From a virus (taxonomy: Duplodnaviria > Heunggongvirae > Uroviricota > Caudoviricetes): a stretch of DNA of 64,000 bases. The stretch lies in the IMG/VR virus record IMGVR_UViG_2721755651_000007; one strand, given 5' to 3'. This document shows positions 55,801 through 58,800 of this stretch, one piece after another (the first letter of the stretch is position 1; every line of letters starts with the position of its first letter). The position numbers were made by a program.

Positions 55801-58800
55801 GTGACGGCGGGAACCCTTCCACCAACAGAATAACGCTGTACTGACCGTACTCAACGTCCATGCTGTAACGACCGGCTTCATCCGGATTTTCAGAGGCCAC
55901 CGTGTTCACCACCACCGTGGCGCTGTTACGTCTGGCTTTCAGTTGAATGGTGCAGTTCTCTACCGGTTTTCCTGTGCCGTCTTTCAGTACACCTGAAATC
56001 TTTACTGCCATATTCACCCCACAAAAAAGCCCGCCTGAACCGGCGGGCTGTCATAACACTGTGTTACCTGGCTAATCAGAACTTATAACCGACACCCACG
56101 ATGAAACCGTCAGTGCGCCAGTCGCCACTGCCGGAGCCTTCATAAGCAATATCAATGGCCACGGATTCGGTCGGGTTAAACTGCACGCCAGCCCCCCACG
56201 CCAGAGACGTGTTGCTGTGGCGACCGTCATCACTTCCGGTCAGCACATCGTGCGTTTTCCCCTTGTTGTCAGTTACGCGAAGATAATCCCCGGAGAAAGT
56301 CGACACACGGCTGTAAGCCACACCCGCCATCGCATACGCGCTGAACCATTCATTCACGCGCACAGACGGCCCCGCCATTACGCTGAACCAGCGGTTACGC
56401 ACGGAATCTTCATGCCAGCGGGTATCGCTGTAACGGGTAAGCTGGCGATTCTTGTCTCCTGCATAGCTGAATGACGTCACCAGCCCCAGCGTGTCCGTAA
56501 ATTCATAACGGTATTTCACGTTAATCCCGTTAAGATTATCGCTACCGGGAGCGCTCGTCCGGGCATGAAGATACCCCGCGCTCAGCGTGGCCTGCTGCTC
56601 AGACGCCCATGCAGGCGCGCCGGATACGGCCAGACAGATGGCTGCGGACAAAATGGCGGCATAAAGTTTACGCATAATTACCTCTCGCTTTTCTGCAATA
56701 AAAAAGGCGCCATTTCTGGCGCCCGTATATGGGTTATAAAATTCAGCTGATACTGATGCCTGCGGTGGCTTTCTTCATCACCACAACCAGCAAATCGCTG
56801 ATACTTGCTGTGGGATACCAGTTATTCACCAGCCATGCTGACACCGAAAACTCCAGCGTCATGTGACCGTGACCGGCAGGCATATCAATAACGCCACTGT
56901 AAATCAGCGTATTATCCAGCGCGGTACGGTTATAAATTTCAGCACCGTTTTTCCGCACTATCAGACGGCATGAGGAGTAAATATCAGTATGCTCTCTCTC
57001 TCATGTTTAGCGCCGCTGAATGCCACCGCCGGAATAACAATCTGCCGGTCAAACGGCTGATCGTCATAAACCCTGACGGTAATGGTCCCTGATGGCCACC
57101 GTTCCGGTGCACGGGAGTCCCGGGGGAAAGCTTTGCCCACTGTTTTAACGAGATCGCCTTCAATCTGGTTCGCGGACAGTTTTCCCAGAACCCGACAGTT
57201 CTCGTTAATCGTGACGTTGTTGAGCGTCCCGGAGTTCGCATTCACACTGCCACTGATATCCGCATTTTTAGCGGTCAGCTTTCCGTCTGATGTCAGGGAA
57301 AATGCCGGAGGATTGCCGCCACTGGTAATGGTGGGAGCCGTCAGATATTTCAGGAACACTTCATTCATGAATATCTGATCGCCCTGACCAACAAACATCG
57401 GCTTTGTGTTGCCATTCGCAGGATTAATCATCGCAATCCTGTCTGCCGCCAGCAGCACCTGACTCTGCATGCCGTCAGAGGTGTTCTCAATACCGGCACC
57501 GATACCCGCAATATAAAGGCGTCCGTCCTGCATCTGCTGCAGCTTCACTGCCCACATGCTGTTCAGGTTATTATTTGTATCAACCTGAACCTTCTGTATC
57601 TGCTGGATCGCTGCACTCTGGTCTTCCAGTTTCTTATTGACGGTCTGCGTGATTTCATTACTGACATCCGTGATGGACGTTCTGATTTCCGCCAGGTCAG
57701 GCGCAAGCTGACCGTTATCAATCTGAGTCCACAACTCCTGAGCCAGATGGGTTTTCCCTATCTCTCCTTTGAAAAAATCCAGATAGCCGGATGCATCATC
57801 ACTCGGCTGGCCAACAGCCTCCACAAATGCCGATTTGCCAACGGTGTTCACACTGCGGATATAAAAGTAATAATCATGGCCCGGTTTGATATTGATACTG
57901 GCGGCTATCCAGTACAGCCCCGTGCCAAGGTAGCGGGCTGTGGTTTCAACCTGCCTGATATCGGTAATCCGCGTTTCCGAAAACCAGAACTCAAACTGTA
58001 CCGTCGGGTCATACACCGCAAGACGCGGGACCGCTGTTATCTGAAAATAGCCCGGTGTCAGCTCAATCTGTGACGGCGCTGCCGGTGCGGCAATCCGGAA
58101 CGATACCGACGCCGGATCGCCCTGCTGCCCCCACGCATTTACCGCCCGGACTGTCAGCCTGTAGTTCCCCGGCGCCAGTTGCGTGAAGCGGTATGTGGTT
58201 TCCGTCGTCCGGGCCGTGCTGACCAGCCGCTCACTGCCGTCATCCGCGGCCACGGTCAGGCGAAGCATAAAGCTCACGCCCTTCACCACCTTCGGCGTGT
58301 CCCATTTCGCCTGCGCCAGATACTGACCGTCAGCTGCGCTCACCTCCACCGTCAGGTGCTGCACTGCCGGAGGGATGACGCTGTTCAGGGTGCCTGACTG
58401 CGGCTCAAAGCGGGCACCGTTATCCACGATGGCTTCTTTTTCCGGTACGTGCTGCACCGCCGTGATGGCAAAGGTGCCGTCCGTGTTTTCCCGGATGGAG
58501 ACACAGCGGAACAGGCGACGACGCAGTGACGGCAGGGAGAGCCCCCACACACCGTATGTCTCCACGCCATCCGGCAGGGTGCTGACCTGTATCCGGTCCG
58601 GCGCGGGGTGTGCAGTGATGGCCACGCTCACCGGCTTACCGCTGCCGTTAATCAGGTTCACCGTGGCGGCACCGGTCTCCGGCAGGGTCACCTCACGGTC
58701 CAGTGTCAGGGTGCGGCTGGCGGCATCGATGGACAGGATACGTCCGCCGGTCATGGTCCCGGCATAGTCGTTATCACAGATTTCAATAATGTCACCGGGT

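What the first reader, a model, noticed from the sequence alone, without database searches (positions are those of the whole stretch)
56961..57010. Frameshift in prophage B gene J located in a (GA)5 dinucleotide tract
J is split into 1100-aa and 71-aa ORFs, and the frame change maps to CTCTCTCTCTC (GAGAGAGAGAG on the coding strand) at about 56990-57002. After the tract the sequence resumes J-like homology ([16 protein letters not shown] versus [16 protein letters not shown] in prophage A) in another frame. Dinucleotide tracts are prone to slipped-strand mispairing, so this may be a decaying pseudogene, a sequencing error, or a reversible switch in the receptor-binding C-terminus.
Basis: seen in the sequence. 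Interest (0 to 1): 0.45.

Follow-up and report, generated by a model that had tools for sequence, protein, structure and literature searches.

The report
Inherited frameshift in dead prophage J
A two-base GA insertion in a short GA repeat breaks the receptor-binding end of the tail-tip gene J in an already crippled E. coli O157:H7 prophage; it is a real, inherited and already annotated pseudogene lesion, not a sequencing error or a working genetic switch.

Summary
The tract CTCTCTCTCTC lies at 56992-57002 (coding strand (GA)5G). It splits J (56743-60221, minus strand) after codon 1076, and removing one GA gives an intact 1158-aa J. The window is E. coli O157:H7 (100% identical to strain 319), and prophage B is Sakai prophage Sp12.

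With 30-nt flanks, exact matches across 20,395 complete E. coli records are:
- (GA)5: 216
- in-frame (GA)4: 928
- (GA)6: 0
- (GA)3: 3

So this is not a sequencing error. (GA)4 is ancestral: it occurs in O55:H7, sorbitol-fermenting O157 and clade-9 O157:H7. (GA)5 is inherited by the sampled strains of Manning clades 1, 3, 7 and 8.

The adjacent tail genes I, K and part of L were already deleted in ancestors whose J was still intact. J was therefore useless to this prophage before it broke. RefSeq already marks it "frameshifted", and the 2009 Sakai prophage study lists Sp12 host specificity as disrupted.

Rare secondary changes exist (TX 265-1 and AC-3/AC-5 restored to (GA)4; NCCP 13946 at (GA)3). 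They fit ordinary slippage or conversion from a paralogous J, not phase variation. Verdict: ordinary prophage decay, low interest.

The parts
56992..57002 (-). (GA)5G dinucleotide tract (CTCTCTCTCTC on the + strand). It starts at J codon 1074 (E-R-E). It carries one extra GA unit relative to the ancestral in-frame (GA)4G.
   Evidence: The ancestral 9-nt allele was seen.
56964..60221 (-). 5' part of gene J: 1076 native codons plus 10 out-of-frame codons ([10 protein letters not shown]).
   Evidence: PGAP annotates 56743-60221 as one gpJ pseudogene, 'frameshifted'.
56961..56963 (-). Premature TGA stop codon created by the frameshift.
56743..56991 (-). 3' part of J, now out of frame. It corresponds to ancestral codons 1077-1158 plus the stop, about 63% of the C-terminal receptor-binding domain (PF12421).
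56743..57101 (-). A 359-bp 3' segment of J that is identical, apart from tract length, to the J of the Sp4-like prophage at serT/hya in O157:H7. It is a substrate for paralogue gene conversion.
60222..60483 (.). J-proximal region ending at the I-K-L deletion junction. About 1.64 kb carrying I, K and the 3' part of L is missing relative to prophage A and to Sakai Sp12.
   Evidence: The deletion is already present in O55:H7 DEC5B and in 493/89, which have an intact J.
60484..60846 (-). Truncated minor tail gene L (the C-terminal coding part is missing).
56076..56675 (-). lom, immediately downstream of J. Its 5' part (56526-56666) was homogenised in the ISEc8-carrying O157:H7 strains sampled here, and the gene now differs from prophage A's lom by 1 nt.

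Best explanation
This is a fixed frameshift pseudogene of the lambda-type tail-tip / host-specificity gene J, in the defective prophage Sp12 at ydfJ of E. coli O157:H7. The ancestral gene carried GAGAGAGAG (codons E-R-E) inside the C-terminal receptor-binding domain. One extra GA unit was added, most likely by replication slippage. This shifts the frame after residue 1076, adds 10 wrong residues, and removes the last 82 residues of the 131-residue receptor-binding domain. The mutation arose after O157:H7 clade 9 split off, and it was inherited by the sampled strains of Manning clades 1, 3, 7 and 8. It could persist because the prophage had already lost tail genes I, K and half of L, so J was no longer under selection. 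Shown here: the lesion, its ancestral state, its distribution, and the order of events relative to the I-K-L deletion. Inferred: slippage as the mutational mechanism, and relaxed selection as the reason for fixation.
For: 1. Removing one GA restores a 1158-aa J with all gpJ Pfam domains.
2. Orthologous Sp12-type J genes with 100% identical flanks and (GA)4 are intact in O55:H7 DEC5B and in sorbitol-fermenting O157 493/89. The clade-9 strains PV15-279 and F3113 also carry (GA)4.
3. Exact counts with 30-nt flanks are (GA)5 216 records, (GA)4 928, (GA)6 0 and (GA)3 3.
4. (GA)5 is present in clade 1 (Sakai), clade 3 (EDL933), clade 8 (EC4115, TW14359), and clade 7 strains of both tir T and tir A type (clade assignments from PMC10758439 Suppl. 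Table 1).
5. The I-K-L deletion coexists with an intact J in DEC5B and 493/89, so it came first. In strain 319, which is identical to the window, the portal is also frameshifted. The truncated integrase and RecE fragments at window ~46644-48421 lie at the Sp11/Sp12 junction and were not assigned to either prophage.
6. PGAP labels the gene 'frameshifted' and the Sakai annotation splits it into ECs_2233 and ECs_2234.
7. Asadulghani et al. 2009 list Sp12 host specificity, portal, head and integrase as disrupted, and found no excision or packaging (PMC2669165).
Against: The tract is not perfectly stable. TX 265-1 has a clean return to (GA)4 while nested among (GA)5 relatives. AC-3 and AC-5 carry (GA)4 with two adjacent SNPs. 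NCCP 13946 has (GA)3 and strain 1613 has 10 nt. The same +GA lesion also occurs in the paralogous Sp4-type J of the clade-9 strains. The insertion therefore either happened twice or moved between paralogues. No reads were available, so the individual rare variants could be assembly errors.
Confidence: 0.9

Rival explanations
1. The (GA)5 allele did not arise de novo in Sp12-J. It was copied into it, or swapped, by gene conversion or double crossover from the paralogous Sp4-type J. That paralogue shares an identical 359-bp 3' end. The pseudogene conclusion is unchanged; only the origin of the lesion differs.
For: Sp4-J and Sp12-J are identical over window 56743-57101 except for tract length. 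The pattern is reciprocal: clade 9 (PV15-279, F3113) has Sp4-J with (GA)5 and Sp12-J with (GA)4, while the other O157:H7 strains listed have Sp4-J with (GA)4 and Sp12-J with (GA)5. AC-3/AC-5 show a conversion-like patch at the tract, with SNPs at 57006 and 57015. lom next door has been homogenised between prophages.
Against: A reciprocal swap needs two crossovers or two conversions, whereas two independent single-unit slippages in unselected genes are simple. No linked marker exists inside the identical 359 bp, so neither route can be proved. O55:H7 DEC5B has (GA)4 at both loci.
Confidence: 0.2
2. The tract is a phase-variable contingency switch that turns the J receptor-binding domain ON and OFF by reversible slippage.
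For: The tract lies in the receptor-binding domain. Length variants of 7, 9, 10 and 11 nt exist within O157:H7 Sp12-J, and one clean frame restoration (TX 265-1) is nested among (GA)5 strains.
Against: 216 records carry exactly (GA)5 and none carries (GA)6. Across E. coli, 928 records keep (GA)4 and only 3 have (GA)3. In-frame J is useless to this prophage because I, K and L are deleted. From general knowledge, known contingency loci usually use much longer tracts than five dinucleotide units. Sakai Sp12 neither excises nor packages (PMC2669165).
Confidence: 0.03
3. The extra GA is a sequencing or assembly artefact of this genome.
For: Short repeats are error-prone in some long-read assemblies. 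Single odd alleles such as the 10-nt tract in strain 1613 may well be such errors.
Against: An identical (GA)5 context occurs in 216 complete records from many laboratories and platforms. The distribution follows phylogeny.
Confidence: 0.01
4. Full-length J is still made from the (GA)5 allele by programmed ribosomal frameshifting or transcriptional slippage on the GA run.
For: Lambda-type tail operons do use a programmed -1 frameshift, in G/GT (general knowledge). A +2 re-pairing of tRNA-Glu from GAG to the next GAG is formally possible on this sequence.
Against: The 0-frame reads CAU GAG AGA GAG AGC, with no X XXY YYZ slippery heptamer. The frameshift arrangement is not conserved: orthologues and paralogues are in frame in 928 records. 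It arose recently in a decaying prophage.
Confidence: 0.01

Closest known systems
Sakai prophage Sp12 host-specificity gene (ECs_2233/ECs_2234/ECs_2235)
   Same: Same prophage, same locus (ydfJ), and the identical (GA)5 tract and flanks. Sp12 host specificity is listed as disrupted in Asadulghani et al. 2009 (PMC2669165).
   Different: Sakai's copy retains I, K and L, has a partly different (recombinant) J body that is 96.8% identical, and is annotated as three CDSs rather than two, implying a further break upstream (not examined here). The window's copy has the I-K-L deletion and a single frameshift.
Bacteriophage lambda tip attachment protein J (PDB 8IYK; J-LamB complexes 8XCJ/8XCK)
   Same: The repaired protein has the full gpJ domain series and aligns over its last 222 residues to lambda J 910-1131 (E = 8.5e-72).
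   Different: The C-terminal receptor-binding sequence differs from lambda's, so the receptor is unknown, and here the domain is truncated by the frameshift.
Simple-sequence-repeat contingency loci of Haemophilus, Neisseria and Campylobacter
   Same: A repeat inside a coding region whose length sets the reading frame. Both gain and loss of units are seen among isolates.
   Different: The tract is very short, the state is essentially clonal (216 identical copies, no (GA)6), and the gene sits in a non-functional module. It is a mutational hotspot, not a regulatory device.
Lambda G/GT programmed -1 translational frameshift
   Same: Two frames within a tail-gene region of a lambdoid element.
   Different: There is no slippery heptamer, the arrangement is not conserved among relatives, and the ancestral gene is a single ORF.

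Membership tests
Lambda-type tip attachment protein J (gpJ) | Full series of gpJ domains: FNIII-A_GpJ, Phage-tail_3, Ig_J, Ig_J_second, Phage_Tail_Tip, Ig_GpJ_C. | tested here: met
   All six domains hit the repaired 1158-aa sequence, with E-values from 1e-40 to 9e-31, all above the curated cut-offs.
Lambda-type tip attachment protein J (gpJ) | Sequence homology of the C-terminus to the solved lambda J receptor-binding region. | tested here: met
   phmmer against PDB: 8iyk_J residues 910-1131, E = 8.5e-72; 8xcj_Z, E = 1.4e-72.
Lambda-type tip attachment protein J (gpJ) | Position in the tail operon after H-M-L-K-I and before lom and the side tail fibre gene. | tested here: met
   H, M, truncated L, J, lom and the tail fibre gene are in order. 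K and I are deleted.
Frameshift pseudogene of a defective prophage | An indel relative to intact orthologues that creates a premature stop. | tested here: met
   +2 nt relative to the intact J of DEC5B and 493/89, with a stop 10 codons later.
Frameshift pseudogene of a defective prophage | The same lesion is inherited along a lineage rather than varying from isolate to isolate. | tested here: met
   216 exact (GA)5 records. The allele is present in strains of clades 1, 3, 7 and 8, and absent from the Sp12-type J of O55:H7, 493/89 and clade 9.
Frameshift pseudogene of a defective prophage | Other inactivating lesions in the same element. | tested here: met
   I-K-L deletion, portal frameshift and IS insertions. 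Truncated integrase and RecE fragments also lie at the Sp11/Sp12 junction but were not assigned to either prophage.
Frameshift pseudogene of a defective prophage | The element is unable to excise or package. | not testable with these tools
   Reported for Sakai Sp12 only, in PMC2669165. Not measured for this strain.
SSR phase-variable contingency locus | Frequent tract-length polymorphism among closely related isolates, with both expansions and contractions. | tested here: not met
   (GA)5 216, (GA)6 0, and about 4-5 variant genomes among about 220 O157:H7.
SSR phase-variable contingency locus | Mixed tract lengths within a single culture. | not testable with these tools
   No sequencing reads were available.
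SSR phase-variable contingency locus | The ON state gives a functional product in its own system. | tested here: not met
   I, K and the 3' part of L are absent in this prophage, and were already absent when J was intact.
Programmed ribosomal frameshift | A slippery heptamer X XXY YYZ at the shift site. | tested here: not met
   The 0-frame sequence is CAU GAG AGA GAG AGC AUA.
Programmed ribosomal frameshift | The two-frame arrangement is conserved in orthologues. | tested here: not met
   928 records carry the in-frame (GA)4 with identical flanks.

The most novel reading that the evidence does not exclude
The short GA run lies in the 359-bp receptor-binding 3' end that several O157:H7 J paralogues share. 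It might behave as a low-rate ON/OFF mutational toggle. Its state could be reset by slippage or by conversion between prophages, letting the 'defective prophage pool' bank and occasionally re-activate a host-range module that recombinant phages could pick up. The opposite (GA)5/(GA)4 states of Sp4-J and Sp12-J in clade 9 versus the other strains sampled, and the restorations in TX 265-1 and AC-3, are the only hints.
Probability: 0.05. Interest if true: 0.45.

Novelty: already known. Interest (0 to 1): 0.14.

Why it matters
It matters little on its own. It documents one step in the decay of a cryptic prophage in a heavily sequenced pathogen, and that step is already flagged in RefSeq and in the Sakai annotation. 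Three modest uses follow:
- The (GA)4/(GA)5 state of the J gene at ydfJ is a clean marker that separates O55:H7, sorbitol-fermenting O157 and clade-9 O157:H7 from the sampled strains of clades 1, 3, 7 and 8.
- The order of events (I-K-L deletion first, J frameshift later) illustrates relaxed selection following module loss.
- The shared, identical receptor-binding 3' end of two J paralogues, with the same lesion at different loci in sister lineages, is a small worked example of either recurrent slippage or inter-prophage conversion.

Tried and rejected
1. Sequencing error: rejected by 216 identical records.
2. Expanded alleles: a (GA)6 query found none.
3. A TX 265-1 private lom SNP was used to find its nearest relatives. 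It was uninformative, being shared only with PA8. The L'/M patch query and the IS629 junction query gave the nesting evidence instead.
4. Large inversion between Sp4 and Sp12 as an explanation for the reciprocal tract states: rejected by reasoning. A single inversion keeps the tract either with its own cargo or with its own prophage body, and the J bodies of PV15-279 Sp4 and ECP17-46 Sp4 are alike.
5. Literature search for ECs2233/ECs2234 found nothing specific. No paper describing the GA tract itself was found.
6. Independent translation of the 71-aa downstream ORF: considered and rejected by inspection. It has a GTG start with no Shine-Dalgarno-like sequence upstream. This was not tested further.
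7. The 2-bp-shorter 6-kb hits (strains 2571, F6321, NE122, F3398) were not followed up. They did not rank among the exact (GA)4 matches, so their indel probably lies elsewhere; their tract was not read.

Full report
**1. The observation**

The + strand of the window reads CTCTCTCTCTC at 56992-57002. On the coding (minus) strand this is CAT GAG AGA GAG AGC ATA..., that is (GA)5G.

The mechanical ORF list gives 56961..60263 (1100 aa from an upstream TTG) and 56743..56958 (71 aa). Counting from the real ATG at 60221 (MGKGGGK...), the gene encodes 1076 native residues, then [10 protein letters not shown] and a TGA stop at 56961-56963.

After the tract, the J sequence continues in the other frame as ...[21 protein letters not shown].... 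This matches prophage A's J...[17 protein letters not shown].... Deleting one GA gives an uninterrupted 1158-aa protein.

The tract is the longest dinucleotide repeat in the 64 kb. A first-order Markov model expects 0.11 tracts of at least 11 nt and 2.2 of at least 9 nt.

**2. Where the window comes from**

The last 16 kb of the window is 100% identical to E. coli O157:H7 strain 319, NZ_CP018241.

The Sakai record labels the stretch matching prophage B as Sp12.

PGAP annotates 56743-60221 as a single gpJ pseudogene, "frameshifted". The Sakai annotation splits the same gene into separate "host specificity" CDSs.

**3. What the gene is**

The repaired protein carries all six gpJ Pfam domains. 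The frameshift at codon 1077 falls inside PF12421, the C-terminal receptor-binding domain (residues 1028-1158). It removes 82 of that domain's 131 residues.

The last 222 residues align to lambda J residues 910-1131 in solved tail-tip and LamB complexes.

**4. Comparison across isolates**

I used 30 nt of flank on each side of the tract and searched 20,395 complete E. coli records. All matches covered at least 80% of the query. Exact matches were:

| Tract | Exact records |
|---|---|
| (GA)5 | 216 |
| (GA)4 (in frame) | 928 |
| (GA)6 | 0 |
| (GA)3 | 3 |

- (GA)5 copies listed include Sakai, EDL933, EC4115, TW14359, Xuzhou21 and many others. A sequencing error is excluded.
- The (GA)4 allele with 100% identical 598-bp surroundings is found at the same ydfJ prophage in five genomes. 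These are O55:H7 DEC5B, sorbitol-fermenting O157 493/89, the clade-9 O157:H7 strains PV15-279 and F3113, and TX 265-1.
- Clade and tir assignments come from PMC10758439 Suppl. Table 1. (GA)4 is therefore ancestral. One GA was gained after clade 9 diverged, and the gain was inherited by the sampled strains of clades 1, 3, 7 and 8.

**5. Why it could be fixed**

In DEC5B and 493/89, J is intact. Yet the neighbouring minor tail gene L is already truncated and K and I are absent, exactly as in the window. The tail-tip assembly module was therefore dead before J broke.

In strain 319 the portal gene is also frameshifted and IS elements are inserted. Truncated integrase and RecE fragments lie at the Sp11/Sp12 junction (window ~46644-48421); I did not assign them to either prophage.

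For Sakai, Asadulghani et al. 2009 list Sp12 as disrupted for repressor, integrase, recombination, portal, head and host specificity, and found no excision or packaging (PMC2669165).

The simplest reading is neutral decay: a slippage-type +2 insertion in a gene no longer under selection.

**6. Is it a switch?**

No.

- There is no expanded allele, and the state is clonal.
- Rare secondary changes do exist:
  - TX 265-1 (tir A, clade 7) has a clean (GA)4 and an intact J. It shares an IS629 insertion between J and L' with 18 other strains. Sixteen of these have the (GA)5-length span; the other two are AC-3 and AC-5, described below.
  - TX 265-1 also shares an L'/M sequence patch with 11 strains, six of which are in that (GA)5 set. 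It is nested among (GA)5 relatives, so the frame was restored secondarily.
  - AC-3 and AC-5 have (GA)4 plus SNPs 13 and 22 nt away (57006, 57015). This looks like a gene-conversion patch.
  - NCCP 13946 has 7 nt and strain 1613 has 10 nt. Either could be an assembly error.
- These events show an ordinary mutational hotspot. A restored J would still have no I, K or L to work with.

**7. An unexpected detail**

The Sp4-type prophage at serT/hya carries a J whose last 359 bp (window 56743-57101) are identical to Sp12-J except for tract length.

| Lineage | Sp4-J | Sp12-J |
|---|---|---|
| Clade 9 (PV15-279, F3113) | (GA)5, frameshifted | (GA)4 (remnant) |
| Other O157:H7 listed | (GA)4 | (GA)5 |

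Either the same slippage happened twice in sister lineages, or the lesion moved between paralogues by conversion. The identical flanks leave no marker to decide. In strain 319 itself the Sp4-J tract is in frame, but that gene has a separate 1-nt deletion.

**8. Other mechanisms**

Programmed frameshifting is not supported. There is no X XXY YYZ heptamer, and the arrangement is absent from the 928 in-frame relatives.

**9. Verdict**

The lesion is already annotated in public records, and the prophage is already described as defective. Novelty is nil and interest is low. The GA state may serve as a lineage marker and as a small example of slippage and paralogue conversion in the O157 prophage pool.

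Noticed in passing
window 60222-60846: A deletion of about 1.64 kb removes tail genes I, K and the 3' part of L between J and M in prophage B. The same deletion is present in O55:H7 DEC5B and in 493/89, so it predates the J frameshift. Sakai Sp12 instead has I, K and L plus a partly different J body, suggesting later recombination there.
   Followed up: yes
window 56743-57101; L014 (ECP17-46), L013 (PV15-279), L016 (strain 319): The Sp4-type J at serT/hya shares an identical 359-bp 3' end with Sp12-J. In the clade-9 strains PV15-279 and F3113 the extra GA sits in Sp4-J instead of Sp12-J, a reciprocal pattern relative to the other O157:H7 strains listed.
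   Followed up: partly
window 56526-56666 (5' part of lom): About 50 clustered substitutions separate the ISEc8-carrying O157:H7 strains sampled from O55:H7, 493/89 and clade 9. In the window, lom of prophage B differs from lom of prophage A by only 1 nt. This suggests gene conversion between prophages in the ancestor of the ISEc8-carrying strains.
   Followed up: partly
window 54287/54288: A 222-bp deletion relative to most of the genomes compared (Sakai, TX 265-1, 1613, PV15-279, 493/89, F3113; DEC5B carries an IS2 there) lies in an nleG-family effector gene. PGAP calls the gene 'internal stop' in strain 319.
   Followed up: no
window 49712-52153: ISEc8 (IS66 family) is inserted into an IS256-family transposase gene. 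The insertion is present in Sakai, 319, TX 265-1 and 1613, and absent in DEC5B, 493/89 and F3113. PV15-279 carries IS1203 in the same IS256 gene at a different site. It is another lineage marker.
   Followed up: partly
window 6250-9780 (prophage A J): Prophage A's J is intact. Its C-terminal receptor-binding sequence appears identical over the ~110 C-terminal residues compared by eye to the solved chain 9WCA 'A8 gpJ 713', which was the best PDB hit for the prophage B query (E = 3e-94).
   Followed up: no
window 58496, 58521, 58572: Three substitutions in the J body are private to the window / strain 319 among the eight genomes aligned. They lie within 77 bp of each other and may be a small conversion patch.
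   Followed up: no
window 56700-56730 (minus strand): A GC-rich hairpin followed by a T run (GGCGCCAGAAATGGCGCC TTTTTT) lies just after the J stop and before lom. It looks like an intrinsic terminator.
   Followed up: no
window 39090-40303: An IS1203/IS629 copy is inserted into a DNA-binding protein gene in the early region of prophage A (annotation of strain 319).
   Followed up: no
L005 (TX 265-1) 11643-12856 and relatives: An IS629-type insertion between J and the L remnant is shared by 19 strains. Nine of them are tir 255 A, clade 7 strains of PMC10758439; the other ten were not typed here. The AC-3 and AC-5 soil isolates from China are among the 19.
   Followed up: partly
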